This document shows, one piece after another, positions 21,336 to 55,891 of a DNA stretch of 64,000 nucleotides (the stretch's first letter is position 1; each line of letters starts with the position of its first letter). The DNA is taken from contig WGMV01000002.1 of NCBI GenBank assembly GCA_016124905.1, positions 1,257 to 65,256 of the forward strand. The letters are read 5' to 3'. This DNA is from a bacterium. Lineage in GTDB: Bacteria > Pseudomonadota > Alphaproteobacteria > Rickettsiales > RI-342. The notes beneath the pieces were generated by a model. That model ran no database searches, was not told the DNA's origin, and saw nothing but the letters and a program-made list of their open reading frames with translations. The position numbers and the translations under genes are program-made.

Positions 21336-21617
21336 ATGCGCCAGGATAAAGCCAATAATTTTCAGGATAATTTCCTCAACGCCCTCCGCAAAAAGAAACT
21401 CCCCGTCACCGTTTACCTCATCAACGGCGTGAAACTGCAAGGCATTGTCGGCAGTTTCGACAGTTTCTGCATCACGCTTCGCCGTGGCCCGCAAATCCAG
21501 ATGATCTACAAGCATGCTGTGGCCACCGTGGTGCCCGCCGGCGCGCTGACGCCGGAGGATTTCGGCATTGAAGTGGGCGAGCACGACGACGTGCCCATGC
21601 CCGATGATTTCGAGTAA
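21336..21617 (+). CDS. hfq: RNA chaperone Hfq
   Basis: Sm1/Sm2 motifs [21 protein letters not shown] and IYKHAV. ATG 21336 is preceded by AAGGA. The C-terminal tail is acidic. Confidence 0.93.
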
Positions 21618-21622
21618 ACCGC

Positions 21623-22939: not shown

Positions 22940-22968
22940 CTTTACACACAAAACCTCACATAAAAGCC

Positions 22969-23087
22969 GGAGCGTAGCGCGACTGGCACCGTCCATGCGA
23001 AGCATGGCGACGCATATGGAGGGCCGCGCCTTATTGGGCGCGTCCATGCGGAGCATGGCAATTTTAATTATGCGGGCGGAGCGAGCC
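22969..23087. repeat. two tandem copies of the dispersed repeat (partial copy C 22969-23010, full copy B 23041-23087)
   Basis: Copy C carries ccgtccatgcgaagcatggcga. Copy B carries cgtccatgcggagcatggcaatt...ggagcgagcc. Both match copy A at 20576-20622. Confidence 0.65.
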
Positions 23088-23097
23088 ACTAAGGCCA

Positions 23098-23126
23098 GCA
23101 TGTAATTCGCAAAGCGAATTACATGC
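23098..23126 (-). terminator. 13-bp perfect stem hairpin (gcatgtaattcgc aaa gcgaattacatgc) enclosing the stop codon of ORFan-761
   Basis: Read directly. The stop codon TAA (23119-23121) lies inside the 3' arm. No U-tract follows. Confidence 0.4.
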
Positions 23127-25404
23127 TGAACATTTCCTGGCTCACACCAGGCACAATCACCTGCTTGGCCGCAGCAGCCATCAGGCTCTGGTCTTCCAGG
23201 GAAGGTGCGGCATTGGTTTCCACCGCCTGTGCATGAATGAAACGGTCAAGCATCTGCTGCTCTTCCGGCAGCGTCTCACCACGCAACCTGGCGGTCAGCG
23301 CGCGCTGGATCACTTCCACACCCCAGCCATTCTTCACCGCCTCGCGGTCCTGACTCAGGCTTTTCGCCACGTTCGTGATCTGGTCGTCGGTCAACTGCTT
23401 GTCGCCGGTTTTGGATTTCACCCATTCCGCCGCAGCCGCCGTGGTCACCAGCAGGTCATTCACGCCCATTGCGGCATTGCGGATGGTGGAGTTCTTGTCG
23501 GCATTGGCCAGCGTCGTGGCAGCCAGCAGCATGTTGCTGTAGCCGAAAAAACGCCCAAAAGCCGTTTTGTTGATCTGCTCATATTCATTCAGGTTCAGCA
23601 GGTTGGCCGCCTGCATACCGATATAGCGGTCGGCTTCGGAAAGCCCCTGACGGTTATCCTTCTGCTTTTCCTTGAACTGCTGGTAATAATCCAGATAGGT
23701 CTCGGGGTTCTGCAGCTTCGCCTGATATTCCTTGCTGCCCGGCTTGCTGTAGCGCGGCGCTTTATGGTCGAAATCCGTGCCATGCTCCAGCATGTCCTTA
23801 AGGGCTTTTTGCACACGGGCCAGTTCCTCGCCCTCAAAATGCACTGGCTTGCCGCCTTCGCCAAGCGGCAGCGGGTTTTTCGGGTCGGCGATATTGGCAT
23901 CCACCATGCCGCGGTAATCGGCCACCTGCTGGCGCAGCTCGGCCATTTTCGCGCGCACCTCGAACAAATCTTTTGCGTTGAAGGCGATCTGCTGGGCATT
24001 ATGCGCCGTGATCCACGGGCCGCCAAAACCGAACGGATCCTTCGACACATGGTCCCAAAAGCCCACCCACGGCGCGCCGATGGTCTTGCCGAAGCTGTTT
24101 TGCGTAAAGAATTTATTGGCCGCACGCCAGATACCGCCGATAATCGGCTTATCGCGCAGCGAATCGCTGATATTGGCATAATCGAAATCGGGATGATCCA
24201 CCCCGCGGCGCGGCATGAAGGCGAAAATGGAGGCCGAGAACATCAGCACCAGGCCTGAGAAAACCGCCTGCGGCTTGAGTTTTTTAGTCCGGGCGATCTC
24301 GCCGGTCACCTCATCGAGCTTCACGTTAACATGGCCGTTGCCGATCGTCTCGGTGGAAAGCACCTCCTCGTTACGGCCGCGAATCAGCGACGAACCGGCC
24401 CAGAGATTGGCCAGCATCATCACAAAACGCCCGCCATCGGCCAGAAAGGTGCGGCCAAGGCGTGGGATTGCGCCCAGATCCTTGCCATCTGGGCCGAAAT
24501 TGATGGCCTTGTTGAAGTCTACCTCGTCACCCACGCGGAAATTCTGGTCAAGCCGGTCCACCACGCTTTTGACGGTTCCCGGGCGCTTCAGAACGGAATT
24601 GATGAGCCAGCCGATGCTGCCGGAAAGAAACCCGGCGCCCTCGCCGAAACGCGGATGCGCCAGCGGGCTGATGCCCAAACGGCGCGCATCGTCGATAGTG
24701 GCAAGAAGAATGCGGCTATCGCCGAAACCATAAAGGATAGGGCCGACCACATCGGCGTTATTCAGCAGTTTGGCGAGGTTTTTCTGCACAGGGTTAAGCC
24801 CGTAGAACTCATCCCGCACAAAGCCCGTGCCCCAGTTTGCCTTCTCCAGCTGGCGAATCAGCGCCTCATCGTCCCGCACACCGGTCAAACGCAGGCCGGG
24901 AGCGCTGGAACCGGCCACCGCCTTGTGTTCCGTATGGCCTTTGCCGATGCTGTCCCACAAATCGCCCATGCGGAAGAATTCATGCGCCACGCGCTCTTCA
25001 TGCAGCCCTTTGATGGTGATGCTGTTATCGCCCACTTCGATGCTGGCAAAGCTTGGCTTGCCCAGTTCGCTGATTTCACGCGCCTTTTGTTCCGGCGTCA
25101 GGCTGCTGCCATTGATGGTGCGAACGGTCTTGTTATGATCCTGTTCCAGGATGCGGTTTTCCACCGCCACGCGCTCTTTCAGGTAATCCAGCAGTTTCGG
25201 GTCGATGCTTGCCAGGTCATGAAAGCGCACCTCATGCGTCAGGCCCGAGGAAATTTCCGTGGGAACAACCGTATAACCTGCGGCTTCAAGCCCTTGAATC
25301 AGCGAATTTACTTCGTCCGCGCTCTGCCCCGGCTTGGCCGTAATAACGGCTTGCCCCTTGTATGAATAGAGCCTCGCTCCATTATCCCAGCGGTAAATTC
25401 CCAT
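23119..25404 (-). CDS. large hypothetical protein (761 aa), no recognisable family
   Basis: Long ORF with an AAGGTGG about 11 nt upstream of ATG 25404. It has central hydrophobic segments (GAGFLSGSIGWLINSVL; GRFVMMLANLWAGSSLI; AVFSGLVLMFSASIFAFM) between large hydrophilic regions. I saw no catalytic motif. Confidence 0.7.
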   Translation of the reverse strand: MGIYRWDNGARLYSYKGQAVITAKPGQSADEVNSLIQGLEAAGYTVVPTEISSGLTHEVRFHDLASIDPKLLDYLKERVAVENRILEQDHNKTVRTINGSSLTPEQKAREISELGKPSFASIEVGDNSITIKGLHEERVAHEFFRMGDLWDSIGKGHTEHKAVAGSSAPGLRLTGVRDDEALIRQLEKANWGTGFVRDEFYGLNPVQKNLAKLLNNADVVGPILYGFGDSRILLATIDDARRLGISPLAHPRFGEGAGFLSGSIGWLINSVLKRPGTVKSVVDRLDQNFRVGDEVDFNKAINFGPDGKDLGAIPRLGRTFLADGGRFVMMLANLWAGSSLIRGRNEEVLSTETIGNGHVNVKLDEVTGEIARTKKLKPQAVFSGLVLMFSASIFAFMPRRGVDHPDFDYANISDSLRDKPIIGGIWRAANKFFTQNSFGKTIGAPWVGFWDHVSKDPFGFGGPWITAHNAQQIAFNAKDLFEVRAKMAELRQQVADYRGMVDANIADPKNPLPLGEGGKPVHFEGEELARVQKALKDMLEHGTDFDHKAPRYSKPGSKEYQAKLQNPETYLDYYQQFKEKQKDNRQGLSEADRYIGMQAANLLNLNEYEQINKTAFGRFFGYSNMLLAATTLANADKNSTIRNAAMGVNDLLVTTAAAAEWVKSKTGDKQLTDDQITNVAKSLSQDREAVKNGWGVEVIQRALTARLRGETLPEEQQMLDRFIHAQAVETNAAPSLEDQSLMAAAAKQVIVPGVSQEMFSM

Positions 25405-34741: not shown

Positions 34742-36988
34742 CTAAGCGAACTTATTATTCCGCGGAAAGCCCGTCGGCGGCAATTTGCCCGCACTCGCAC
34801 GCTTGCCCAGCCACATGTTCAGGTTTGGCTCCACCCGCTCGCGCTCACCACTTTTCCAGCTAAGGCCATTCTCGCCTTTGAACACTTTAAGATCGCTGAT
34901 ATTGCCATCCTTGTATTTCTGCAGCGTCACACCCTGCCCGCGCTTCATCACGGGGATTTCCTCCAGCTCAAACACCAGCAGCTTGCGGTTCTGGCCAATC
35001 ACGGCCACCTTGTCGCCATCCACCGGCGTGCAGATCACGGCCTTCTGCTTGTCATTCAGGTTCAGCACCTGGCGGCCCTGGCGCGTCTGCGCCACCATGT
35101 CGCCTTCAATGATGCGGAAGCCCTTGCCCTCGCTGGAAGCCACCAGCCACTGGCGCTCATCCGTGCCCGGCTCATTGACAAATAGCGCAACAATATCTTC
35201 CTCGTTCGGCAAATCCACCATCAGGCGAATCGGCTCACCCAGCCCTTTCCCTTTCGGAATCCGGTTGGCAGGCACCGTGTAGCATTTCCCGTCGCTGGCG
35301 AAGAACATCAGCTTATCCGTCGTCTTGCACGGAATAATAAACCGCTCTTCATCGCCCTCTTTATATTTGGCATCCGGCATCTCGGTGAAGGTTCCCTTCA
35401 CCGCGCGCACCCAGCCCATCTTGGAGCAAAGCACCGTGATGGGCTCTTTCTCCACGAATGCTTCCACGGAAATATCGATATCCTTCGGCGCATCCGTCAC
35501 CAGCGTGCGGCGCTTGCCGATTTCCGTCTCCTCGGAAAACATCGCCTTCAGCGCCTTCACATCCTTGGAAAGCCAGCTCATGCGCTTGTCATCGCTGCCA
35601 AGCAATGCTTCCAGCTCCGCCTGCTCGGCCTTCAGCCTGTCATGCTCACCGCGAATCTCGAATTCCTCCAGCTTGCGTAAGGAGCGCAAACGCATGTTGA
35701 GGATGGCCTCCGCCTGATTGTCGGTAAGCCCGAAACGCTCCATCATCACCGGCTTGGGCTTATCCTCCTCACGGATGATGCGAATCACCTCATCCAGGTT
35801 CAGATATGCAACCAGGTAACCTTCCAGCACTTCCAGCCGGTCCTTGATCTTGCCAAGGCGATAACGACTCTTGCGGTCCAGCACCACCAGACGATGGTCG
35901 ATATATTCCTGCAAGATATCCTTCAGGTTCTGCACCTTCGGCACATTGGCCGAGGTGATCACGTTCAAATTCAGCGCAAAACGGCTCTCCAGCTCGGTCA
36001 GCTTGAAGAGCGATTCCATCAGTACTTCCGGCTCCACATTGCGGCTCTTCGGCTCAAACACGATGCGGATAGTCTCCGTCGATTCATCACGGATATTCCC
36101 GAGCAGCGCGAGCTTTTTATCGCGGAACAATTCGGCGATCTTCTCGATCAGGCGCGATTTCTGCACCTGATACGGAATTTCCGTCACCACAATCTGGTAC
36201 AGCCCGTGGCTCAGCTGCTCCACTTCCCATTTGGCGCGCACGCGCAAGCTTCCGCGGCCTGTCTCATACGCCTTCAAAATCGTTTCGGGTGCTTCCACCA
36301 GCGAGCCACCGGTCGGGAAATCCGGCCCCTTCACAAACTGCATCAAATCCGCCACGTCGCTTTTCGGCTTTTTGATCAGCAGCTGAATCGCATCGCACAG
36401 CTCCGCCACGTTATGCGGCGGAATGCTGGTCGCCATTCCCACCGCAATCCCTTCCGATCCATTGGCCAGAAGGTTCGGGAAACGCGCCGACAGCAGCACC
36501 GGCTCAATGTCAGACGAATCATAGGTGGGGCGAAAATCCACCGTGTCATTCTCGATATCTTCGAGCAGCAGCATGGCCACATTGGTCATGCGCGCCTCGG
36601 TATAACGCATCGCCGCCGCGTTATCCCCATCGATGGAACCAAAATTCCCCTGGCCGTCCACCAGCGGGTAGCGCAGCGCAAAACTCTGCGCCATGCGCAC
36701 CATCGTCTCATACACCGCCACATCGCCGTGCGGGTGGTATTTACCGATCACATCCCCCACCACGCGGGCGCATTTCTTATAGCCCGATGCCGGGTCCAGC
36801 TTCAGCTGCAGCATCGCATACAGCACGCGGCGGTGCACCGGCTTCAACCCGTCCCGCACATCCGGCAGCGAACGCGACATGATAGTGGACAGCGCATAAG
36901 AGAGATACCGCTCCGAAAGCGCATTCACGAGTGGCACATCCACAATCGCACCGGCGGGGTCTTGGTGATGGGTCTTCTCTTTGCTCAT
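34742..36988 (-). CDS. parC: DNA topoisomerase IV subunit A
   Basis: [21 protein letters not shown] and the catalytic-Tyr context [10 protein letters not shown]. Length is 748 aa. There is no GyrA box, and a true gyrA is present elsewhere in the window. Confidence 0.88.
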
Positions 36989-39021: not shown

Positions 39022-40140
39022 ATGAACATGAACTTCAACATCACCCACACCGACGGCAACGCCCGCGCAGGCACCCTGCACACCGCCCATGGTGAAGTGC
39101 AAACCCCTGTTTTCATGCCCGTCGGCACCGCCGCAACCGTCAAGGCCATGACGCCCGAGCAGGTCAAAGCCACCGGCGCTTCCATCATCCTCGGCAACAC
39201 CTACCACCTCATGCTCCGCCCCGGCGCGGAGCGCGTCAGCCGCCTCGGCGGCCTGCACACATTCATGCAATGGCCCGGTCCCATCCTCACCGATTCCGGC
39301 GGGTTTCAGGTCATGTCCCTTTCCTCCTTACGCAAAATCACCGAGGAAGGCGTCACCTTCAAATCCCACATCGACGGCAGCTCCCACCACCTCACGCCCG
39401 AGCGCTCCATCGAAATCCAGCATCATCTGGATTCCACCATTACCATGTGCTTCGACGAATGCACTCCCTTCCCCGCCACGCACAAACAGGCCGCCGACTC
39501 CATGCGCCTTTCCATGCGCTGGGCCAAACGCTCCCTCGATGCCTTCCAGCAACGCGACGGATACGGCATTTTCGGCATTGTCCAGGGCAGCACTTATGAG
39601 GACCTTCGCAAGGAAAGCGCCGACGTTCTAAGCAACATGGATTTTAACGGCCTCGCCATCGGCGGCCTCGCCGTGGGCGAAGGCCAGCAGGCTATGTTCG
39701 ACACGCTCGATGTCACCGTCCCGCACCTTCCCACGCACAAACCGCGCTACCTCATGGGCGTCGGCAAACCGCTCGATATCGTCGGCGCTGTGCTTCGCGG
39801 GGTGGATATGTTCGATTGCGTCATCCCCACCCGCTCCGGCCGCCTGGCCCGCGCCTACACCTCCATCGGCGAGGTCAACATCCGCAACGCCCGCTTCGCC
39901 GAAGACCCGCTCCCGCTTGACGAAGCCTGCAACTGCCCCACCTGCTCCCGCTTTTCCCGCGCTTACCTTCATCACCTGTTCAAAGCCGACGAAATGCTCG
40001 GCCCTATCCTGATGACCTGGCACAACCTCTCTTATTATCAGGAACTCACCCGTCAGCTGCGCACCGCCATTCAGGAAAAACGCCTGACGCAACTGGCCGC
40101 CGACCTGTTCGATCGGCTCGGCAAAACCAAACAATCCTAA
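39022..40140 (+). CDS. tgt: tRNA-guanine transglycosylase
   Basis: [20 protein letters not shown] and the zinc site [17 protein letters not shown]. It starts 1 nt after the queA stop. Confidence 0.93.
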
Positions 40141-40166
40141 CGGTACGGGTTCGCCTGTTGCCCAAT

Positions 40167-42524
40167 CTATCTATTGTAAACGGGCTGCCCATTATAGGGC
40201 TGCTGGTACTGCCCCTGATACGGCAATTGCGCGGGCATCGGCGTATAAGCCTGCTGCTGCATCACCGGCTGAAGTGGCGGCTGATAAGCGGGAGTATAGA
40301 CCTGCGGCGCATAGCCCTGCTGCGTCGGCGGCACAAAATTAGGCTGCGAGATGTAACTTTCCTTCCTCGCGGGCGGCAGATCGTAAGACTGCACATAAGC
40401 CGCGCCGCCTCCGTTGGAAATCAGCGGCGGCAAGCTCTCTTGCTGATATTGATAGCTCTGCTGCTGATACACGGGCTGCGGCGCCGCATAAGGCGCCTGC
40501 ATGGGCGGCGCATAGCGCTGCGGCGGCTGATAGCCCTGTGGCACCGCCCCCAGCGATTGCGGCGGCGCATACCCCTGCTGCGGCACGGGCGCCTGGTAAC
40601 GTGGCGCAGGCTGCGGAGCGGCCATCAGCGGCGCGGGATAGGACTGGCGCTGCGGCGCATAGGCCTGCGGCTGCTGATAATAGGTCGGCGGCGGCGCATA
40701 ATAAGGCTGCTGCTGATAGCCATAATAAGGGCGATAGACCGGTTGTGGCGGCGGTGGCGGCAACAGACGATTCGCCAGTTCCTGAAAGCCGTAATACTGC
40801 GCGTAATAACCCGGCGTGAAGCCACGATCATCCACCTTGTTCTTATCCGCGCCGTTATTGGTCAGCAAATCCACCATGTCGCTATTGCCCTTGGCGGCGG
40901 CGATATGCAGCGCCGTCTGCCCCTGCTGCATGGGCAGGTTAGGGTTGGCCCCTGCCTTCAGCAAAAGGCTGGCCACTTCCACATGCCCCGCATTCACCGC
41001 ATAGGCCAGCGGCGTGCGCCCTTCCTGATCGCTCTCATCCACCCGCGCCTTGTTCTTGATCATGAGTTTGGCGATATCGGTATTGCCGTTATTGGCGGCA
41101 AAATGCAGCGCCGTCATACCGTGGCTGTCCTGCGCATCCGGGTCGAGTTTCTGCGACAGCAGAAAATTCGCCGCCAGCATGTTGCCGCGCTTGAGCGCAC
41201 GCAGCACGGGCGGGTTGCCCGCCTCGTCAATCTGGTTGCCGTCAAACCCCTGTGCGAACAAAGCCTGCAATGCGCCAGTATCGTTTCGGTCGATGGCGGT
41301 GAAATACATATGCTCCAACTGGCGCGACAATTTCCGCCCACCGGGAATCGGCGCCGTGCTCTTGCGTTTATAATCCTCGGGGTTCAGCTGCGGGCGCGGT
41401 GGCGGGGTGCTGTCCTCTTCCTCAAATTCATCATCATAGCCCATGCCCGACACCCGGCCTTTATTATCGGCCTCGTCCAGCATCTTCAGGGCCTTGTCGA
41501 TATTGGGGTCGCCGCTGTCCAGCGTATCGGTTTTGCCATTGCCGCCATTCGGCCCTTTGATGGCAAACATCGGCGCAATACGGCCCGATGCATCCACCGG
41601 CTTATCCGGCAGTTGCACAGGTGGCAATCCAGCCTTGCTGCTTGCTTTGCCAGCTGCTGCATCGGTCATGCCGGGCAAGGGCGGCAAGCCTGCGGGTTCC
41701 GTCGCCATCGTCGGCAGAGGGGGCAGATCTTTCGCAACCGTGGTGGTGGTGGTCTGGGTAGCCGCAGCGGGCGCGGCACCGGCCACCACGGGCTTAACGG
41801 TTTTGGTGGTGGTGGTCGTAACGGTTTGCGTTTTGACGGATTTGGTGGGCACCGGGGCAGCAGGCGCTGTCGGCAAGGGCGGAAGGTCCAGCGTGGGAGC
41901 GGCCGCTGCCTTGGCTGGTGCTGCGGTTTTGGCAGGTGGTAATGGCGGCGGCATATCGTCCACTGGCACGGCAACGGCTTTAACCGTCGTCTGGGTGGTT
42001 TGCACCGTTGTTTTGGCGGGCGGCAGCGGCGGCGGCATGTCATCCACCGGCACGGCCTGAGCCTTCACACTGGCGGATGCGCCCTTTGCGGGCGGCAACG
42101 GAGGAGGCAGATCATCCAGCTCGGTCGGCTGCGTCTTGGCCGGGGCCGTTTTAGCGGGCGGCAATGGCGGCATATCAGCGGCAACCACGCTGGTCTTGGT
42201 CGTCGTGGTAGCGGTGCTGGTCACCTTGGCGGCCGCCGCCTTATCCGGAGGCAGCTTCTGAAAAAGATCGTTGATGTCCTTGTCATCGGCGGCTTTTCGC
42301 GCGGCCTTGTCCGGCACGGGCGGTGGCAATGCCGAAGCCGACGGAAGCTCCAGCGCCGGCATGGGCGGCATTTCTGGCAGTTCCACGCTGGCGGCATCAC
42401 TGGCGTTGGGCAGCGGTGGCAACCCTCCCGTTCCCTGTGCAAACGCACTGGAACATGACAAGGCCGCAAGGCTCACCCAAAGGCCTGTGATGATATATTG
42501 GCTGAATGTGCCGTGGCCCGCCAC
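40167..42524 (-). CDS. exported proline-rich / ankyrin-repeat protein with Q/Y/P-rich C-terminal tail (785 aa)
   Basis: Signal-like N-terminus ...LAALSCSSAFA-QG. It has more than 10 (L/M)PP(L/P/M)P motifs, including three near-identical DD(M/L)PPPLPPAK units. ANK consensus repeats are present (GMTALHFAANNGNTDIAKLMIKNKA, GRTPLAYAVNAGHVEVASLLLKAGA, GQTALHIAAAKGNSDMVDLLTNNGA). The last 199 aa are almost only Q, P, Y and A. Confidence 0.85.
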   Translation of the reverse strand: MAGHGTFSQYIITGLWVSLAALSCSSAFAQGTGGLPPLPNASDAASVELPEMPPMPALELPSASALPPPVPDKAARKAADDKDINDLFQKLPPDKAAAAKVTSTATTTTKTSVVAADMPPLPPAKTAPAKTQPTELDDLPPPLPPAKGASASVKAQAVPVDDMPPPLPPAKTTVQTTQTTVKAVAVPVDDMPPPLPPAKTAAPAKAAAAPTLDLPPLPTAPAAPVPTKSVKTQTVTTTTTKTVKPVVAGAAPAAATQTTTTTVAKDLPPLPTMATEPAGLPPLPGMTDAAAGKASSKAGLPPVQLPDKPVDASGRIAPMFAIKGPNGGNGKTDTLDSGDPNIDKALKMLDEADNKGRVSGMGYDDEFEEEDSTPPPRPQLNPEDYKRKSTAPIPGGRKLSRQLEHMYFTAIDRNDTGALQALFAQGFDGNQIDEAGNPPVLRALKRGNMLAANFLLSQKLDPDAQDSHGMTALHFAANNGNTDIAKLMIKNKARVDESDQEGRTPLAYAVNAGHVEVASLLLKAGANPNLPMQQGQTALHIAAAKGNSDMVDLLTNNGADKNKVDDRGFTPGYYAQYYGFQELANRLLPPPPPQPVYRPYYGYQQQPYYAPPPTYYQQPQAYAPQRQSYPAPLMAAPQPAPRYQAPVPQQGYAPPQSLGAVPQGYQPPQRYAPPMQAPYAAPQPVYQQQSYQYQQESLPPLISNGGGAAYVQSYDLPPARKESYISQPNFVPPTQQGYAPQVYTPAYQPPLQPVMQQQAYTPMPAQLPYQGQYQQPYNGQPVYNR

Positions 42525-42536
42525 AATTCCCCCTGC

Positions 42537-43370
42537 TTAACGGGGTATCAGTTTGCGCAGCTCATCGCGGACGATGCGCTCTACCGTGGCTGGCAGATTG
42601 GCCTCAAACCAGTCCTTGATCAACGGTTGCAATGCCTCGATCAGCAAATCCTCCACCGTGGTGCCGCTGCGGGTCACCAGACCGCTATGAACCGGCTGCG
42701 CCTCTTCATTCTGGTGCGGAAGCGTATCGATGAACTCCTTGAAAGCACTGCTCACATTGGCGGCAGCCTGGGGCGACAGCAAGCCCCGTTCTTCCTGTTC
42801 ATCCATGGACAGATCCTTGGCAGGTTGGTCTTCTTCATCCGTCTCGTCCAGTCCGGCATTTTCGAGCATGGAAATATCCATGTCCTTGAAATCATCAGCC
42901 CCGGATTCTTCGTGGATGTCCTCTTCGTGAATTTCCTCTTCCGCTTCAACGCTTGAAGGCGCTTCCTCATCCACCATTTCAAGCTCAACGGGCATTTCAT
43001 CCGCCACCATGGGCGTGGCCTCTTCGGCAATCACCTCATCAATCGGCTCCGCGATATCCTCTTCACCACCGGAAACGGACAACGGCTCGTCGGATTCAAT
43101 GGCTTTGGTAATGGCATCGATATCGGCCAGAATATCATGCGAATCATCGGGGGTGGAAATATCCGGCTCCATCACCATGTCGGTGAGTTCGAGCACATCC
43201 TCTTCTTCGGCCGAGGCATCGATTGATTCCGGCACTGCGTCAACGGGCGCCGCTGTGTCGGCAGCCCCTTCAGGAGAACCCCCTGCAGGCCCATCTTCCG
43301 CAATAATGCGTTTGATGGACTGAAGAATTTCTTCCATGGTTGGGTCTTGTTGCAGCTTGTCGTCAGCCAT
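42537..43370 (-). CDS. popZ: PopZ-like pole-organizing protein (DUF2497)
   Basis: The N-terminal DPTMEEILQSIKRIIAED matches the PopZ N-terminal helix. A long acidic, Pro/Glu-rich linker follows. The C-terminal TVEDLLIEALQPLIKDWFEANLPATVERIVRDELRKL matches the DUF2497 oligomerisation domain. Confidence 0.75.
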   Translation of the reverse strand: MADDKLQQDPTMEEILQSIKRIIAEDGPAGGSPEGAADTAAPVDAVPESIDASAEEEDVLELTDMVMEPDISTPDDSHDILADIDAITKAIESDEPLSVSGGEEDIAEPIDEVIAEEATPMVADEMPVELEMVDEEAPSSVEAEEEIHEEDIHEESGADDFKDMDISMLENAGLDETDEEDQPAKDLSMDEQEERGLLSPQAAANVSSAFKEFIDTLPHQNEEAQPVHSGLVTRSGTTVEDLLIEALQPLIKDWFEANLPATVERIVRDELRKLIPR

Positions 43371-43501: not shown

Positions 43502-44884
43502 TTAGAACCCCAACATTTTGTGGCTGTTGTTGTCGTAATACTCTTCGGGGTCATAGCGCTGCACGGCCAGATTCAAGGCTTCAGCGGTAAATTGGCCAAG
43601 CAGCGCGGCCAGTGTATATTCCGCCACGGCCTCGTCACGCTCGGCAGATACCTGGTCCACCTCTGCCTGAAAAAGCTCGCGCTCGGCATCCAGCACATCC
43701 AGCGTGGTGCGCGCACCGTATAGCTGCTCCTGCTGAACGCCGTCCAGCGCCACTTTCGCAGCATCCACCGCCTCTTTGTTCGCCTCAATGGAGGCACGGG
43801 TGGAATTCAGGCGCTCCCACGCACTCACCACAGCTTCGCGCACACGGTTATTCGTATCCATTGCCGTCAGCTTGGCCTGCTCGCGCTGACGCTTGGCCTG
43901 CCGTGTCTTTGAATAGGCCGAGCCGGATTCATACAGCGGAATATTGAAATTGAGCGCAATCGTATCGTTGCGCACATCCGTGCCCGCGCCCAGGAACACA
44001 TTCCCTTCCTGACGCTGCGCCGTTGCATCCAGCGAAACGGATGGCAACAGCTGCGACCGCTGAACGCCTACATTCTTATCCGCCGCCTCTGCCTGAAACG
44101 CGCGCTGCTTCAGCACGGGGTTCTGCTTGAGGGCGACATCCACAGCCTCTTCAATCGTGCCGGGCAGTTTGATATCCGGCAATTCGTCGGAAAGAACGGG
44201 CGACGCCGGCTTGCGGACGATACGCTCGAAATTCGCCTCGGCGGCGGCCTGGTCGGCCTGCGCCTGCGTCTGGTTGGCCTGCGCGGTTGCCAGGCGGGCC
44301 TGGGCCTGGGCGGTGTCGGTGCGCGTCACTTCGCCCACCTCGAAACGCTCATTGGTCGCATCCAGGTGCTTGCGCAGCACATCCAGGTTTTTTTTGCTGA
44401 GATCCATCACGCGGCGGGTGCGGATCACATCCGCATAAGCCGTTGCGGCATCCAGCAGCACGCTTTGCTCGGTGCCCCTGAGTTGCTCACGCCCGGCGGC
44501 GGAATTCTCTTTTGCCTGCTGATAACTGTAATAGCTGCCAAACCCGTTGAACAAGGGCTGGCTGGCCTGCAGCGAACGCACATCCGTGGTGCCGTACGAG
44601 AACGCGCCGGAACCGCGTTTGATACGTTGATTCCCGCGCGAATAATCCGCCGAAACGGACGGACGGAACTGCGAGAACGCCTGGTTCACATTCTCATCCG
44701 TGGCCTTCAGCCCTTCACGCCCGGAGGAAAGCTCGGGGTTGAACGTGTAGGTATGCGCCAGCGCATCGGCAAAGTTATTTACCGGTTCCTCGGCATGGGC
44801 CACCAGGGGAAGCGTTGCGCACCCCACGGCCAGCAGCCCCAGCATGAATCGGCGATGAAAGAGAGAAGCTGAACGGCGTATCAA
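43502..44884 (-). CDS. tolC: TolC-family outer-membrane efflux protein
   Basis: Signal peptide ...LPLVAHA-EE and two tandem OEP repeats (460 aa). The TTG start overlaps the pcm stop (TTGA). Confidence 0.85.
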   Translation of the reverse strand: MIRRSASLFHRRFMLGLLAVGCATLPLVAHAEEPVNNFADALAHTYTFNPELSSGREGLKATDENVNQAFSQFRPSVSADYSRGNQRIKRGSGAFSYGTTDVRSLQASQPLFNGFGSYYSYQQAKENSAAGREQLRGTEQSVLLDAATAYADVIRTRRVMDLSKKNLDVLRKHLDATNERFEVGEVTRTDTAQAQARLATAQANQTQAQADQAAAEANFERIVRKPASPVLSDELPDIKLPGTIEEAVDVALKQNPVLKQRAFQAEAADKNVGVQRSQLLPSVSLDATAQRQEGNVFLGAGTDVRNDTIALNFNIPLYESGSAYSKTRQAKRQREQAKLTAMDTNNRVREAVVSAWERLNSTRASIEANKEAVDAAKVALDGVQQEQLYGARTTLDVLDAERELFQAEVDQVSAERDEAVAEYTLAALLGQFTAEALNLAVQRYDPEEYYDNNSHKMLGF

Positions 44885-45543
44885 AACACGAACTCCTGAT
44901 GTTTCTCCAGCCCTGGCAGCACGCGAACCGCGGCATCGTAAGCATCGCGATACGTCACCACGCCATCCGCCTTCACCCCTTGAACCATGCGGGCGAAACG
45001 GCCGGAATCCTTTTTATAGATAATGGCGGCAATGCGGCCGCCTTCCTTCAATTGCTCCTCAAGCGCCTGGGGCACCTGATGCGCGCCGCCATTGATGATG
45101 ATGGCATCAAACAGCGTTTTGGCATCCACGCCATGCGCCAGGCTGCCCACCGTCACCTCAACATTCTGACGTCCCAGCCTGCGCAGTTGGCTGACGGCAT
45201 GGGCGGCCAGCTGTTCATTGCATTCCAGCGCCACCACGTGTCTAGCCAGATGCGAAGCCAGCGCGGCGGAATATCCCGTGGCGCAGCCCACATCCAGCAC
45301 CGTGTCCTCTGCGTCGATTTCGGCCAGCTGAAGCAGACGGGCCTGAGCCAGGGGCTCCAGCAGGTAGCGCGCATCCAGCCCATGCCCCAGCGGCAGGTCA
45401 TGGTCCGCATAGGCCAGGCTTTGATATTCGGCGGGGATGAATGGCTCGCGCGGCAGCTCACCCATCACGTCCAGAATACGCTTATCCGTGATTCCGGAAG
45501 TGGCCAGCTGCTGCGATACCATATTGATACGCGCCTGCTGCAT
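44881..45543 (-). CDS. pcm: protein-L-isoaspartate O-methyltransferase family protein
   Basis: SAM-binding VLDVGCATGYSAA and conserved alphaproteobacterial pcm-tolC adjacency. I take the start at MQQARINM (ATG 45543). Confidence 0.78.
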   Translation of the reverse strand: MQQARINMVSQQLATSGITDKRILDVMGELPREPFIPAEYQSLAYADHDLPLGHGLDARYLLEPLAQARLLQLAEIDAEDTVLDVGCATGYSAALASHLARHVVALECNEQLAAHAVSQLRRLGRQNVEVTVGSLAHGVDAKTLFDAIIINGGAHQVPQALEEQLKEGGRIAAIIYKKDSGRFARMVQGVKADGVVTYRDAYDAAVRVLPGLEKHQEFVF

Positions 45544-45680
45544 GGTCTGTGAACGTAAGGCGGACACCGGCGTCTCCCCAAATTTGTGCGTTGCGGTATG
45601 GCATAGATAGGCCTGCTTTCCCACCGCTTCAATGGGGATTATCAGCAAAACATTACCAAAAGATTGCAGTTAGGCCGCGT

Positions 45681-50087: not shown

Positions 50088-52778
50088 ATGACCGATACCC
50101 CAGCCTCCAGCTCTCAGCCGGTAGCGATTGAACATGAAATGAAGCGCTCGTACCTCGATTACGCCATGAGCGTGATCGTGAGCCGGGCCATCCCCGATGT
50201 CCGCGACGGCCTCAAACCCGTACACCGCCGCATCCTCTTCGCCATGCTGGAATCCGGCTGCACCAACGACAAGCCCTACAAAAAATCCGCCCGTATCGTC
50301 GGTGAAGTGATGGGTAAATACCACCCGCACGGCGACTCCGCCATTTACGACGCCCTCGTGCGCATGGCGCAGGATTTCGCCATGTCCGTCATGCTGGTGG
50401 ACGGTCAGGGTAACTTCGGCTCCATGGACGGCGACAAACCGGCCGCCATGCGTTACACCGAATCCCGCCTCGCCAAGGTGGCGATGGAAATCCTCGCCGA
50501 CATCGACGAAAACACCGTCGACTTCCAGGAAAACTACGACGGCTCCGAACAGGAACCCAAAGTCCTTCCCTCCCGCTTCCCCAACATCCTCGTCAATGGC
50601 GGCGGCGGCATTGCGGTCGGCATGGCCACCAACATCCCCACCTTCAACCTGGGCGAAGTCATCGACGCCACGCACATGCTGCTGGACAACCCGCTGGCCA
50701 CCAATGAGGAGATCCTCACCGTCATGCCCGGGCCGGATTTCCCGACCGGCGGCCTCATCCTCGGCCGCGGCGGCATCCGCAACATGATGGAGACGGGCCG
50801 CGGCAGCATCGTCATGCGCGCCCGTACCGACATCGAAGAGGCCAATAACGGCCGTCAGACCATCATCGTGCAGGACATTCCCTACCAGGTGAACAAGGCC
50901 CGCATGATCGAGCGCATCGCCGAGCTCGTGCGCGAAAAACGCATCGAGGGCATCTCCGACCTGCGCGACGAATCCGACAGCGACGGCGTGCGCGTCGTCA
51001 TCGAGGTCAAGAAAGATCACCAGGCCGACGTCGTCCTCAACCAGCTCTACCGCTACAGCCCGCTGCAGACCAGCTTCGGCGCCAACATGCTGGTGCTGGA
51101 CCAGGGCCAGCCCAAGCTCCTCACCCCGCGTGAGATCCTGATCGCCTTCATCGACTTCCGCGAGGAGGTCATCTACCGCCGCACCATCAACCGCCTGAGT
51201 AAATCCCGCGAGCGTGCGCACGTATTGATCGGCCTTTCCATCGCGGTGGCCAATATCGACGAGATCATCCGCATCATCCGCAATTCGCCGGACCCCGCCA
51301 CCGCGCGTGAATCCCTGATGGCCAAGGACTGGGCCGCCGAAACCGTCGCCCCGCTCATCGCCTTGGTGGAAGACCGCGGCAACATCCTCGTTTCCGGCCG
51401 CACCAAACTGACCGAAGCCCAGGCCAAAGCCATCCTTGACCTGCGCCTGCATCGCCTGACGGGCCTTGAGCAAGCCAAGATCAACGACGAACTCGGCGAA
51501 CTCGGCACCGCCATCCGTGATTATCTCGACATCCTCGGCTCGCGTGAGCGCATCCGCGCCATCATCCGCGAGGAACTCACCGCCGTCAAAACCGCCTATG
51601 CCGAGCCGCGCCGCAGCCGCATCGAAGATGGCGATTTCGACCAGGATATCGAAGACCTCATCCAGCGCGAGGACATGGTCGTCACCGTCACCATGGGCGG
51701 CTACATCAAGCGCGTGCCGCTGGCCGACTACCGCGCCCAGAAGCGCGGCGGCAAAGGCCGCAGCGGCATGAACATCCATGAGGATGACATCACCACCGAG
51801 CTGTTCGTGGCCAACACCCACACGCCGGTATTGTTCTTCAGCAGCAAGGGCCGCGTCTTCAAGCTGAAGGTCTACAAACTGCCGCAGGGCACGCCGCAAT
51901 CGCGCGGCAAGGCGCTCATCAACATCCTGCCGCTGGAACAGGGCGAAACCATCCAGACCTTCATGCCCCTGCCGGAGAATGAAAACCTCTGGGATCAGCT
52001 GCACATCATGTTCGCCACCAGCAAGGGCAACGTGCGCCGCAACACGCTGGAGGATTTCCACGATGTACGCTCCAACGGCAAAATCGCCATCCGCATGGAC
52101 GAAGGCGACACGCTCATCGGCGTGCGCACCTGCACCGAGGACGACAACGTGCTGCTCGCCGCCCATAGCGGCAAATGCGTGCGCTTCCCCGTGGCCAACG
52201 TGCGCGTGTTCAAAAGCCGCACGTCCGACGGCGTGCGCGGCATGCTGCTCGCCGAAGGCGATCGCGTTATCTCCATGGCCATCGTGAAAGATTCCAGCGT
52301 CAGCATTGAAGAGCGCGACGAATATTTGCGCTATGCCAGCGCCAAGCGCCGTGGAGAGGACTACGCCTCCAAACTTCCGCAGGAAACAGTGACGCAGCTG
52401 GAAACCGAGGAACAATTCATCCTCACCATCACCGAAAACGGCTACGGCAAACGCACCTCGGCCTACGAATACCGCATCACCAACCGCGGCGGCCAGGGCA
52501 TCGTCAACATCGAAACCTCCGAGCGCAACGGCGCGGTGGTGGCCAGCTTCCCCGTGGATGCGACCGACCACATCATGCTGATGACCGACAAGGGCCAGAT
52601 GATCCGCACCACGGTGAAGGACATCCGCATCGCCGGCCGCAACACGCAGGGCGTCACGCTCTTCCGCGTGTCGGACGATGAGCACGTCGTCTCCGCCGTC
52701 CGCATTGCCGACAACAGCCAGGATGAGGATGAAGAAGGCGCAGAAGCGGTAGAAGAAACCACCACCCAGGCGGAATAA
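50088..52778 (+). CDS. gyrA: DNA gyrase subunit A
   Basis: [20 protein letters not shown], the catalytic-Tyr context [10 protein letters not shown], a GyrA box (QKRGGKGR) and an acidic C-terminal tail. Confidence 0.96.
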
Positions 52779-54997: not shown

Positions 54998-55891
54998 ATG
55001 CCTTTTGTCAACGTCAACATCGTGCTGGATAAACCGCTGGAACCCGACCAGCGCCTGGCCTTCCCCTACCCGGAAGGCTTGAACGAGGCCAGTTTCTTCG
55101 GCGCCTTCAACCATAACCTGGTGGTGGACGATGTTTTCTGCAAATCGCCGATCGATTTCGTCATCATCCCGCGCAGCGCCTTCCTGGAGCTTCACTGGCG
55201 CAAAAACCAGACCGTGGCCAAAGGCAAATTCCTCCATGTAAGGCTGGAGGAGCTCGGCACCAACGCCCATTACGACGCCAAAAACAACGTCACGCTGGTC
55301 AACACCTTTCCGGCCAACCTGTTCATGATCAACCTGCGTGCCCCGCTGCCGCGTGATCATCAATTTTACATCCCGCCCATGCAGCTCACCAAGCCGGGCG
55401 CCCTGCCGCTGGCCAAAAACCACCCGGATGTGCCGCGCAACGTGATTATTGCCGCCACGGTCAATGCCACACAGGTGCAGTTCAAAATTGTGGGGCAGGA
55501 TGTCTACAACCGCAACATGACCGAAGTGATCACCGGCCCCAATGCCGGCATCCGCAGCGGCAAAAAAGCCTTCAACAAAATCCTCAGCATCCAGGCCAGC
55601 CAACCTTGCAATGGCGACATCGCCGTCGGTGTCGGCAACCGCATCGGCCTGCCGGTATTCCTTCCGGCGGAAGGCTACGTGGTGCAGGAAATGATCGGCA
55701 GCGCGGTTCCCCAGTCCCCCGGTCTGCTGATTCCCGGCGATATCGGCGCTCCCACGGCCACCAGCGGCGACCGGCGCGGAACCTACACCCCGCCCTCCAC
55801 CGCCGCGCTCAATGGCCGCAACGGCATCTACCTGCTCATGTCATTGCCCAATCCCGGCAATATCGGTTCGGAAGACTTCTTCGAAGCTTAA
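54998..55891 (+). CDS. hypothetical protein (297 aa), beta-rich, no recognisable family
   Basis: Clean ORF with a GGAAAGAAACC context before the ATG. It has no signal peptide, no TM segment and no catalytic motif that I recognise. Confidence 0.6.
   Translation: MPFVNVNIVLDKPLEPDQRLAFPYPEGLNEASFFGAFNHNLVVDDVFCKSPIDFVIIPRSAFLELHWRKNQTVAKGKFLHVRLEELGTNAHYDAKNNVTLVNTFPANLFMINLRAPLPRDHQFYIPPMQLTKPGALPLAKNHPDVPRNVIIAATVNATQVQFKIVGQDVYNRNMTEVITGPNAGIRSGKKAFNKILSIQASQPCNGDIAVGVGNRIGLPVFLPAEGYVVQEMIGSAVPQSPGLLIPGDIGAPTATSGDRRGTYTPPSTAALNGRNGIYLLMSLPNPGNIGSEDFFEA

What the first reader, a model, noticed from the sequence alone, without database searches (positions are those of the whole stretch)
40167..42524. 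Exported protein combining FH1/ActA-like polyproline repeats, ankyrin repeats and a low-complexity tail
Seen, in order along the protein: (1) A cleavable-looking signal peptide (…LSCSSAFA-QG). (2) A ~300-aa region with at least ten (L/M)PP(L/P/M)P motifs. This region includes three near-identical units, DDLPPPLPPAKG and two copies of VPVDDMPPPLPPAKT, encoded by imperfect ~70-85-nt DNA repeats around 41925-42190. Thr-rich spacers lie between the motifs. (3) An acidic patch, YDDEFEEED. (4) Four to five ankyrin repeats. (5) A 199-aa Q/P/Y/A tail. Established: clustered xPPxLPP motifs are the ligands of profilin, EVH1, SH3 and WW domains, as in formin FH1, Listeria ActA and Rickettsia RickA/Sca2. 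ANK repeats are enriched in effectors of host- or prey-associated bacteria. Proline-rich spacers also occur in envelope-spanning TonB/TolA. Inference: either a eukaryote-mimicking surface or secreted protein, for example one engaging host actin or SH3 machinery, or a novel envelope scaffold. I know of no characterised protein with this domain order. This is the strongest candidate in the window for something undescribed.
Basis: partly seen in the sequence, partly recalled or inferred. Interest (0 to 1): 0.75.

Follow-up and report, generated by a model that had tools for sequence, protein, structure and literature searches.

The report
Exported ankyrin protein encoded next to popZ
This gene encodes an exported, mostly disordered, proline-rich ankyrin-repeat protein that sits directly after the cell-pole organiser gene popZ in many uncultured alphaproteobacteria; it most resembles the periplasmic Rickettsia protein RARP-1, not a host-mimicking effector.

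Summary
Window 40167-42524 (-) encodes a 785-aa protein with five parts: a signal peptide, a 270-aa Pro/Ala/Thr region, a short conserved middle part, an ankyrin domain, and a 199-aa Gln/Pro/Tyr tail. The Pro-rich region carries ten ΦPP(P)ΦP motifs, against 0.09 expected.

The gene starts 12 nt after popZ, in the order pcm-tolC-popZ-ank. Of 11 independent popZ loci from other contigs, 10 carry a homologue directly downstream of popZ. These homologues share the signal peptide (mostly AxA|Q), PPLP-type motifs just after it, and the ankyrin repeats. The more distant ones also share a pre-ankyrin "LPxTIYRxxYxxxNxHLP" motif.

All regions are under purifying selection (dN/dS 0.03-0.19). Composition is native, and the window carries metabolism typical of a free-living bacterium.

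The closest characterised protein is Rickettsia RARP-1. It has a Sec signal, a disordered centre and C-terminal ankyrin repeats, lies in a tolC-led operon, and forms periplasmic, often bipolar puncta.

Best reading: a RARP-1-like periplasmic scaffold or adaptor co-expressed with PopZ. A eukaryote-mimicking effector is unlikely. I could not test sequence homology to Rickettsia RARP-1. The popZ linkage and the occurrence outside Rickettsia did not appear in the searched literature.

The parts
42438..42524 (-). Signal peptide, residues 1-29, with predicted cleavage AFA|QG
   Evidence: A hydrophobic core followed by a small-x-small site; eight of 11 homologues have a small-x-small|Q site. No SignalP run.
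42225..42437 (-). Conserved N-terminal motif block of the mature protein, residues 30-100: GGLPPLP, LPEMPPMPALELP, LPPPVPDKAARKAADDKDINDLFQKLPP
   Evidence: 87% identical to L082 and 49% to L084; dN/dS 0.09. A ΦPPLP motif lies within a few residues of the cleavage site in family members, and a D-I/V-x-x-L-F motif recurs in L087, L086 and L169.
41625..42224 (-). Pro/Ala/Thr-rich repeat region, residues 101-300. It holds the DD(L/M)PPPLPPAK(G/T) units (encoded at about 41925-42122) and Thr-rich spacers.
   Evidence: Motif enrichment. DNA repeat families D2/D5/D6. The two identical 15-aa peptides are encoded with 9 synonymous and 0 non-synonymous differences. dN/dS is 0.14 against L082, with indels between species. 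No secondary structure and pLDDT <50.
41340..41624 (-). Middle region, residues 301-395: LPPVQLPDKPVDASGRI, a weak helix at 340-355, the acidic patch YDDEFEEED (41412-41438), and PRPQLNPEDYKRK
   Evidence: 90% and 70% identical to L082 and L084; dN/dS 0.06. Helix predicted at low confidence. Y385 is invariant in the 8-sequence alignment.
40764..41339 (-). Ankyrin-repeat domain, residues ~396-587: six helix pairs including the N-cap and the C-cap (GFTPGYYAQYYGFQELANRLL)
   Evidence: Pfam Ank_2/Ank/Ank_4/Ank_5/Ank_3. AlphaFold pLDDT 70-91. Foldseek and PDB matches are generic ankyrins and DARPins. 96% and 76% identical to L082 and L084; dN/dS 0.03.
40170..40763 (-). Gln/Pro/Tyr/Ala-rich low-complexity tail, residues 588-785. 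It contains a conserved island, PPLISNGGGAAYVQSYDLPPARKESYISQPNFVPP (residues 699-733, 40326-40430), and ends in ...YNR.
   Evidence: Composition. Short 12-21-nt tandem repeats. The island is 69% identical in L083/L084. Tails ending in Y/N-x-R occur in L084, L085 and L086. dN/dS 0.055 against L082. Predicted disordered.
42537..43370 (-). popZ (cell-pole organising protein, DUF2497); its stop codon lies 12 nt upstream of the ankyrin gene's start
   Evidence: PF10691 9.7e-18 and NCBIfam PopZ_fam 6.8e-28. No promoter-like or terminator-like site on the - strand between the two genes.
43502..44884 (-). tolC-type outer-membrane channel gene, upstream in the same orientation
   Evidence: PF02321 OEP 3.6e-65. 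The order pcm-tolC-popZ-ank recurs in L082-L087 and L168-L172.
44881..45648 (-). pcm (protein-L-isoaspartate O-methyltransferase), first gene of the co-oriented cluster; overlaps tolC by 4 nt
   Evidence: NCBIfam NF001453 1e-40.
39022..40140 (+). tgt (queuine tRNA-ribosyltransferase), the convergent downstream neighbour; marks the end of the cluster
   Evidence: ORF and translation. 63-73% identity to Tgt of many Alphaproteobacteria. The same tgt/queA neighbours occur in L083, L084 and L086.

Best explanation
The gene encodes a Sec-exported, non-enzymatic scaffold or adaptor protein of the cell envelope, of the same kind as Rickettsia RARP-1.

Proposed mechanism, with the status of each step:
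- It is transcribed with popZ, and probably also tolC and pcm (inferred from spacing, orientation and conserved order).
- Its signal peptide is cleaved at AFA|QG (inferred from the conserved cleavage-site pattern).
- The mature protein stays in the periplasm as a long, disordered, polyproline-II-rich chain. This chain displays about ten ΦPPxΦP short linear motifs. It is followed by a six-repeat ankyrin domain that binds one or more envelope partners, then by a Gln/Pro/Tyr low-complexity tail.
- By analogy with RARP-1, it concentrates partners in the periplasm, probably at the cell poles. It would thus be the periplasmic counterpart of the cytoplasmic PopZ matrix encoded by the preceding gene.

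Shown here: the architecture, the conservation, the genetic linkage to popZ, and purifying selection on every region. Inferred: export, periplasmic residence, polar localisation, scaffold function, and homology to RARP-1.
For: Architecture:
- Signal peptide, 270-aa Pro-rich region, ANK domain and tail.

Operon context:
- A 12-nt gap after popZ with a Shine-Dalgarno sequence.
- No promoter-like or terminator-like site on the - strand within the cluster.

Conserved linkage to popZ:
- Homologues lie immediately downstream of popZ in L082, L083/L084, L085, L086, L087, L169, L170, L172 and L173, and as a split gene in L168. Only L171 lacks one.
- Most of these loci also show pcm-tolC upstream.

Shared family features:
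- Signal peptide with a small-x-small|Q site (eight of 11), PPLP-type motifs right after it, a pre-ANK Y-x-x-Y-x-x-x-N-x-H-L-P motif, and a GY(S/T)PxDYAxYY C-cap.

Selection and composition:
- dN/dS is 0.03-0.19 in all regions against L082.
- The identical motif peptides differ only synonymously at the DNA level.
- Composition is native: gene 62% GC, window 59%, GC3 0.71.

RARP-1 from the literature (bioRxiv 10.1101/2022.02.23.481736, read):
- N-terminal Sec signal, central IDR and C-terminal ANKs.
- It is the last gene of an operon whose first gene is tolC.
- It is not secreted by R. parkeri. It is periplasmic and often forms bipolar puncta.
- It co-precipitates with RvhB9/B10, Sca2, lipoproteins and porins.

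Rickettsiae encode a functional PopZ (PMC5182065). Two family loci come from MAGs labelled Rickettsiales (L087 with L024, and L170).
Against: - No Rickettsia RARP-1 sequence could be fetched, so homology beyond the generic ANK fold is untested. The resemblance rests on architecture and gene context.
- That the gene between tolC and rarp-1 in Rickettsia is popZ is my recollection of an unnamed hypothetical gene (RT0217, Kaur et al. 2012, paper not held). I have not verified it.
- RARP-1 has no Gln/Pro/Tyr tail.
- The window copy's signal peptide lacks a basic n-region.
- No localisation, co-transcription or partner data exist for this protein.
- R. typhi RARP-1 was reported as secreted through Sec-TolC, so secretion cannot be excluded.
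- pcm-tolC-popZ is a common alphaproteobacterial arrangement. Adjacency to tolC alone therefore carries little weight.
Confidence: 0.55

Rival explanations
1. Eukaryote-mimicking effector or surface protein. The protein leaves the cell, by Sec then TolC or another route. Its ΦPPxΦP motifs then engage host or prey profilin, EVH1, SH3 or WW domains, while the ANK domain binds a host target.
For: - Dense PPLP-type motifs under selection, plus ANK repeats.
- Weak, sub-threshold NCBIfam hits to Legionella Dot/Icm Ank effectors.
- The gene is adjacent to tolC.
- R. typhi RARP-1 was reported as Sec-TolC secreted (cited in PMC9553169 and PMC8023194).
- Some relatives are MAGs labelled Rickettsiales.
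Against: - The gene is a syntenic, vertically conserved partner of popZ across loci of 45-61% GC. It has native composition and strong purifying selection, not the patchy, horizontally acquired pattern typical of effectors.
- The window encodes photolyase, Ser/Arg/folate biosynthesis and CheW.
- There is no FPPPP motif and no FH2, WH2 or autotransporter domain.
- All NCBIfam effector hits are far below their cut-offs and cover only the ANK repeats.
Confidence: 0.1
2. Envelope-spanning tether of the TonB/TolA type. The N-terminal hydrophobic segment stays as an inner-membrane anchor. The Pro-rich polyproline-II rod spans the periplasm and presents the ANK domain and tail to the peptidoglycan or outer membrane.
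For: - The order hydrophobic segment, long Pro-rich spacer, folded domain resembles TonB.
- The window copy lacks a basic n-region.
- The length of the Pro-rich region varies between species, as in spacers.
Against: - A small-x-small|Q cleavage-type site is present in eight of 11 family members.
- There is no TonB_C or TolA domain-III hit.
- The motifs, not only the length, are conserved and selected.
- The Thr-rich, Ala-rich and motif composition differs from the EP/KP repeats of TonB.
Confidence: 0.1
3. Dedicated periplasmic inhibitor or helper of one enzyme. This would resemble Bdellovibrio Bd3460, an ankyrin immunity protein for DD-endopeptidases, or Pseudomonas AnkB, a helper of catalase KatB. 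The disordered regions would be accessory.
For: - Periplasmic ANK proteins with such roles exist (cited and PMC9553169).
- The ANK domain is the most conserved part.
Against: - No hydrolase or catalase gene is linked to it. The constant neighbour is popZ.
- About 75% of the protein is conserved disordered sequence under purifying selection. That is unnecessary for a simple inhibitor.
Confidence: 0.15

Closest known systems
[quoted passage not shown]
   Same: - N-terminal Sec signal, large central disordered region and ankyrin repeats, in that order.
- It is the last gene of a co-oriented cluster that begins with tolC.
- It has no predicted enzymatic domain.
- Experimentally it is periplasmic with frequent bipolar puncta. 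That fits a gene sitting directly behind popZ.
   Different: - The window protein has a further 199-aa Gln/Pro/Tyr tail after the ANK domain and a dense array of ΦPPxΦP motifs.
- The organism has 59% GC and biosynthetic genes, so it is not an obligate intracellular rickettsia.
- Sequence-level homology could not be tested here.
- The RARP-1 literature I could search does not mention popZ as an operon partner.
PopZ (DUF2497), the neighbouring gene product
   Same: Both are largely disordered, low-complexity proteins with one small ordered interaction module. They are encoded 12 nt apart. PopZ is a polar scaffold, and RARP-1's authors proposed an analogous periplasmic scaffold role.
   Different: PopZ is cytoplasmic and acidic, with no signal peptide. 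There is no sequence similarity between the two.
Periplasmic ankyrin proteins AnkB (P. aeruginosa) and Bd3460 (B. bacteriovorus)
   Same: They are Sec-exported ankyrin-repeat proteins that act inside the bacterial envelope rather than on a host.
   Different: Those are short proteins, almost entirely ANK, linked to a specific enzyme partner. This protein is about 75% disordered and is linked to popZ.
Formin FH1 / Listeria ActA / Rickettsia Sca2-RickA proline-rich regions
   Same: Clustered polyproline motifs with flanking acidic residues (DDMPPPLPPAK).
   Different: - No FPPPP core and no FH2, WH2 or autotransporter module.
- The motif block is conserved in bacteria that show no sign of host association.
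- The predicted location is the periplasm.
TonB / TolA envelope-spanning proteins
   Same: An N-terminal hydrophobic segment followed by a long Pro-rich, extended region and a C-terminal interaction domain.
   Different: - The cleavage-type AxA|Q site suggests the protein is released from the membrane.
- There is no TonB_C or TolA-III domain.
- It is not linked to exbBD or tolQR.

Membership tests
RARP-1-like periplasmic IDR-ankyrin proteins | N-terminal Sec signal peptide | tested here: met
   A hydrophobic N-terminus with an AFA|QG site. Eight of 11 homologues have a small-x-small|Q site, and homologues have a basic n-region. This was judged by eye; SignalP was not available.
RARP-1-like periplasmic IDR-ankyrin proteins | Large central intrinsically disordered region | tested here: met
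   Residues 30-395 are P/A/T-rich. The single-sequence AlphaFold model gives no secondary structure and pLDDT <50 there.
RARP-1-like periplasmic IDR-ankyrin proteins | Ankyrin repeats C-terminal to the IDR | tested here: met
   Pfam Ank_2 3.3e-38; six helix pairs over residues 396-587. One difference: a 199-aa tail follows the repeats.
RARP-1-like periplasmic IDR-ankyrin proteins | Encoded at the end of a co-oriented cluster led by tolC | tested here: met
   The order is pcm-tolC-popZ-ank on the - strand, with gaps of -4, 131 and 12 nt. The same order occurs in L082-L087, L168-L170 and L172. Co-transcription itself was not tested.
RARP-1-like periplasmic IDR-ankyrin proteins | Sequence homology to Rickettsia RARP-1 beyond consensus ANK positions | not testable with these tools
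   No Rickettsia RARP-1 sequence could be retrieved.
RARP-1-like periplasmic IDR-ankyrin proteins | Periplasmic, often bipolar localisation; not secreted | not testable with these tools
   Needs fractionation and microscopy.
Ankyrin repeat superfamily (Pfam Ank clan) | Significant matches to Ank HMMs and the helix-loop-helix repeat fold | tested here: met
EVH1/profilin-ligand proteins (ActA, zyxin, formin FH1) | (D/E)FPPPP core (EVH1), or poly-Pro tracts next to an FH2/WH2 actin module | tested here: not met
   There is no FPPPP anywhere in the protein and Pfam finds no domain other than Ank. Only the generic ΦPPxΦP pattern is present.
TonB/TolA envelope-spanning proteins | TonB_C or TolA domain III, and an uncleaved N-terminal anchor | tested here: not met
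   No such Pfam hit. A cleavage-type site is present in eight of 11 homologues.
Legionella Dot/Icm ankyrin effectors (AnkH, AnkY, AnkX and others) | Score above the NCBIfam equivalog cut-off | tested here: not met
   The best hit is 73.6 bits against a cut-off of 600. The matches cover only the ANK repeats.

The most novel reading that the evidence does not exclude
RARP-1-type proteins may not be a Rickettsia invention. They could be the periplasmic arm of an ancient alphaproteobacterial polarity module, tolC-popZ-rarp. One transcript would then encode a cytoplasmic disordered scaffold (PopZ) and an exported disordered scaffold.

In the exported partner, about ten PPLP motifs, the ankyrin domain and the prion-like Gln/Pro/Tyr tail would form a multivalent, possibly condensate-like matrix in the periplasm. 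This matrix would sit opposite the PopZ pole. It could be positioned through a transmembrane PopZ partner such as ZitP.
Probability: 0.2. Interest if true: 0.8.

Novelty: new variant of a known kind. Interest (0 to 1): 0.55.

Why it matters
- RARP-1 is treated in the rickettsial literature as a genus- or family-level gain tied to host association, and was long listed as a Sec-TolC effector.
- A family with the same architecture sits at the same tolC-led locus, immediately after popZ, in many environmental Alphaproteobacteria that look free-living. That would place its origin before host association. It would also support the periplasmic, polar reading of RARP-1.
- It gives a concrete hypothesis for why RARP-1 forms bipolar puncta: genetic coupling to the pole organiser.
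- It identifies tractable features to test, namely the conserved PPLP array, the pre-ANK NxHLP motif and the ANK groove.
- If the exported protein forms a multivalent matrix, it would be a rare candidate for organised, scaffold-driven compartmentation of the periplasm.

Tried and rejected
- Whole-protein homology search. It returned only giant multi-ANK proteins, not even the self hit. Candidate selection was probably swamped by homopolymer and ANK words.
- Exhaustive representative search with residues 290-480. I included two ANK repeats, so the top 150 were all multi-repeat ankyrins. This was uninformative and used the only job.
- Genome scan with Tgt. It gave only a rough placement: best hits were 73% and 71% to MAGs labelled Rickettsiales, and 71% to Acetobacteraceae. 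tblastn showed no popZ, tolC or ank near tgt in those 80 loci, so it gave no synteny information.
- Metagenome scan with PopZ. Nothing found.
- Metagenome scan with the ANK-domain alignment. It returned 80 generic ANK loci with no popZ.
- Search seeded with the published RARP-1 peptide. The 16-aa query was too short. A chimera with window sequence found nothing, which suggests this family is absent from that index.
- Cluster look-up for organism names. No names returned.
- Family alignment for AlphaFold.
- PDB sequence search and Foldseek. Only generic ankyrins and DARPins.
- ZitP-like zinc ribbon in the window. None found.
- Papers by Kaur 2012 and Gillespie 2015 are not held.
- Considered and rejected: the antisense ORF 40158-41942 (+). 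It is Arg-rich and not conserved, so it is an artefact of high GC.
- Considered and rejected: a T1SS substrate. The protein has an N-terminal Sec signal, and tolC adjacency is generic.
- Considered and rejected: recent slippage repeats. The repeat units differ at 20% of bases, all synonymous.
Full report
**1. What is there**

Window 40167-42524 (-) is a 785-codon ORF. It has a GTG start preceded by GGGGGA and lies 12 nt after the stop codon of the upstream gene. A public assembly carries exactly this gene call on a 4.6-kb contig.

The protein has five parts:
- Residues 1-29: a hydrophobic N-terminus ending in AFA|QG.
- Residues 30-300: P 20%, A 20%, T 14%.
- Residues 301-404: a mixed-charge middle part that includes YDDEFEEED.
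- Residues 405-586: ankyrin repeats.
- Residues 587-785: P 24%, Q 21%, Y 15%, A 11%.

Pfam confirms the ankyrin repeats (Ank_2 3.3e-38, Ank 1.9e-26). A single-sequence AlphaFold model of residues 296-620 gives six helix pairs at pLDDT 70-91 for residues ~396-587. The model of the mature protein shows no secondary structure and pLDDT below 50 for almost everything else. PDB sequence and fold searches return only generic ankyrins and DARPins.

The Pro-rich region holds ten [LM]PP(P)[LMVP]P motifs. Composition-preserving shuffles give a mean of 0.09 and a maximum of 2 in 5000. The units DDLPPPLPPAKG and 2 x VPVDDMPPPLPPAKT are real. They are encoded by imperfect DNA repeats at 41923-42171.

**2. 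The repeats and the disordered parts are under selection**

The two identical 15-residue peptides are encoded by DNA that is only 80% identical, and all nine differences are synonymous. So the peptide, not the DNA repeat, is what is maintained.

Against the closest orthologue (L082), dN/dS by region is:

| Region | dN/dS |
|---|---|
| Signal peptide | 0.19 |
| N-terminal motif block | 0.09 |
| Pro-rich repeats | 0.14 |
| Middle part | 0.06 |
| ANK domain | 0.03 |
| Tail | 0.055 |

dS is about 0.65-1.15. Over longer distances the Pro-rich region and the tail change length and sequence. They keep their composition and the motif.

**3. Context**

The upstream gene (42537-43370, -) is popZ (PF10691 9.7e-18; NCBIfam PopZ_fam). 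Upstream of popZ lie a tolC-type channel gene (43502-44884) and pcm (44881-45648), all co-oriented. tgt and queA converge from the other side. On the - strand, the simple scan finds no promoter-like site, and no terminator-like site at any gene junction of the cluster; its two - strand terminator-like matches lie inside tolC and pcm, and the total is below the shuffle expectation. This is weak evidence, but it is consistent with an operon.

The gene's GC is 62% and its GC3 is 0.71, matching the window at 59%. The window also encodes photolyase, SerA/SerC, ArgD/ArgF, FolP, PabB, CheW, the glycine-cleavage P protein, a ClC channel and hybrid sensor kinases. This is a metabolically autonomous gene set. 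It argues, by inference, against an obligate host-bound organism.

**4. Relatives**

Direct protein searches with the ANK protein were swamped. I therefore went through PopZ. Its homologues were traced to their contigs, and 11 independent popZ loci were inspected.

| Locus | PopZ identity | Gene after popZ | Notes |
|---|---|---|---|
| L082 | 79% | 88% identical orthologue | cut at contig end |
| L083/L084 | 55% | 61% identical orthologue, 773 aa | 460-kb JGI contig; same tgt/queA neighbours |
| L085 | | 581 aa | |
| L086 | | 440 aa | |
| L087 | | 647 aa | MAG labelled Rickettsiales |
| L169 | | 721 aa | |
| L170 | | 279 aa | 'Rickettsiales bacterium' MAG |
| L172 | | 319 aa | its PopZ was seen on more than 20 contigs |
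| L173 | | 298 aa | |
| L168 | | gene split into two ORFs | |
| L171 | | none | popZ is followed directly by pgm |

So 10 of the 11 loci have a homologue immediately 3' of popZ. Locus GC ranges from 45% to 61% among the ten loci with a homologue; L171, which lacks one, has 39%.

Family features:
- A signal peptide, with a small-x-small|Q site in eight of the 11 family members.
- A ΦPPLP-type motif within a few residues of that site, and further PPLP or PPPLP motifs.
- In several members, an acidic D-(I/V)-x-x-L-F motif.
- In the more distant members, a conserved "LPxTIYRxxYxxxNxHLP" motif just before the repeats. Y385 of the window protein is the invariant Tyr.
- Two to six ankyrin repeats.
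- In most of the longer members, the C-cap GY(S/T)PxDYAxYY.
- In the longer members, a Gln/Pro/Tyr or Gln/Pro/Met tail that often ends in Y/N-x-R.

**5. Closest known protein**

A literature search for PopZ plus ankyrin led to Rickettsia RARP-1. Sanderlin, Hanna and Lamason (bioRxiv 10.1101/2022.02.23.481736) report the following:
- RARP-1 has an N-terminal Sec signal, a large central IDR and C-terminal ANKs.
- It is part of an operon whose first gene is tolC.
- It is not secreted by R. parkeri or by E. coli.
- It lies in the periplasm and often forms bipolar puncta.
- It co-precipitates with RvhB9/B10, Sca2, lipoproteins and porins.
- It supports growth and invasion.

The authors invoke PopZ only as an analogy for an IDR scaffold.

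In the searchable library, no paper other than Sanderlin et al. contains PopZ, TolC and Rickettsia together, and that paper cites PopZ only as an analogy. Rickettsiae do encode a functional PopZ (PMC5182065). From memory, not verified here, Kaur et al. 2012 described the operon as tolC (RT0216), a hypothetical gene (RT0217) and rarp-1 (RT0218). If RT0217 is popZ, the locus here is the same locus.

Schön et al. (PMC9352585) place the gain of RARP-1 at the Rickettsiaceae ancestor and note a few homologues in basal Rickettsiales. Their RARP-1 cluster was a broad ANK group.

**6. Interpretation**

The best-supported reading is a RARP-1-like exported scaffold or adaptor:
- It is Sec-exported, cleaved and periplasmic.
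- It has an extended polyproline-II-rich chain carrying multivalent short linear motifs.
- It has an ankyrin domain for partner binding.
- In this clade it also has a prion-like tail.
- It is co-expressed with PopZ and is plausibly enriched at the poles.

The steps from sequence to localisation and function are inferences.

The eukaryote-mimicry reading is weakened by vertical syntenic conservation with popZ, native composition, purifying selection, the free-living-type gene content, and the lack of FPPPP or actin modules. The re-test of RARP-1 secretion also counts against it. The TonB/TolA-like tether reading is weakened by the conserved cleavage-type site and the absence of the defining C-terminal domains. 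A single-enzyme inhibitor like Bd3460 or AnkB does not explain 75% conserved disorder or the constant popZ linkage.

**7. Limits**

- I could not obtain a Rickettsia RARP-1 sequence, so membership in the RARP-1 family is supported by architecture and gene context only.
- There was no SignalP run.
- The AlphaFold models are single-sequence.
- The taxon is only roughly placed: an uncultured alphaproteobacterial lineage, with Tgt at most 73% identical to any GTDB species representative.
- Free-living status is inferred from one 64-kb window.

**8. Verdict**

This is a new, tail-bearing, PPLP-rich variant of a known but poorly understood kind, the RARP-1-type periplasmic IDR-ankyrin protein. The added observation is that the kind is genetically coupled to popZ and is widespread outside Rickettsia. 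In the literature I could search, that observation has not been made.

Noticed in passing
window 23119-25404 (-) and 18044-20110 (+): Two large ORFs (761 and 688 aa) have ordinary amino-acid composition and GC3 of about 0.71 but no Pfam match at all. They are probably real genes of unknown function.
   Followed up: partly
window 54998-55891 (+): A 297-aa ORF with no Pfam hit, lying between a small ORF cluster and hslO.
   Followed up: no
L168 7280-8113 and ~8228-8701: In MAG GCA_036770365.1 the popZ-downstream family member is split. One ORF carries the signal peptide and Pro-rich part, ending ...GGLPPLPALPMP...ALPPVVDAKGLA. A second ORF carries the NRHLP motif and the ANK repeats. This could be a frameshift, a pseudogene or an assembly error.
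   Followed up: partly
L171 43-1005 (-): In the one locus that lacks the ANK gene, a 320-aa protein with MJ0042-type zinc-ribbon domains (Zn_ribbon_4/5, ZitP-like) lies a few kb from pcm-tolC-popZ. No such gene is in the window.
   Followed up: partly
window 42537-43370 (-) and homologues: PopZ in this group is long: 277 aa here and 263-417 aa in relatives, against about 170-230 aa for most hits. The extra length is an extended acidic linker.
   Followed up: no
window 40170-40763 (-), and the C-termini in L084, L085, L086: The Gln/Pro/Tyr tails of four family members end in a similar ...(Y/N)-x-R or ...YR C-terminus (YNR, PYR, GNR, YSR). This hints at a conserved C-terminal signal of unknown meaning.
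   Followed up: no
window 50088-52778 (+) and 34742-36988 (-): Two type-II topoisomerase A-subunit genes flank the cluster within 15 kb: gyrA by NCBIfam, and a parC-like gene. The same arrangement occurs in L083.
   Followed up: no
window 21506-23101 (-) versus 21623-22939 (+): Long overlapping antisense ORFs, typical of high-GC DNA. The - strand translation looks like an artefact, and the real gene is probably on the + strand.
   Followed up: no
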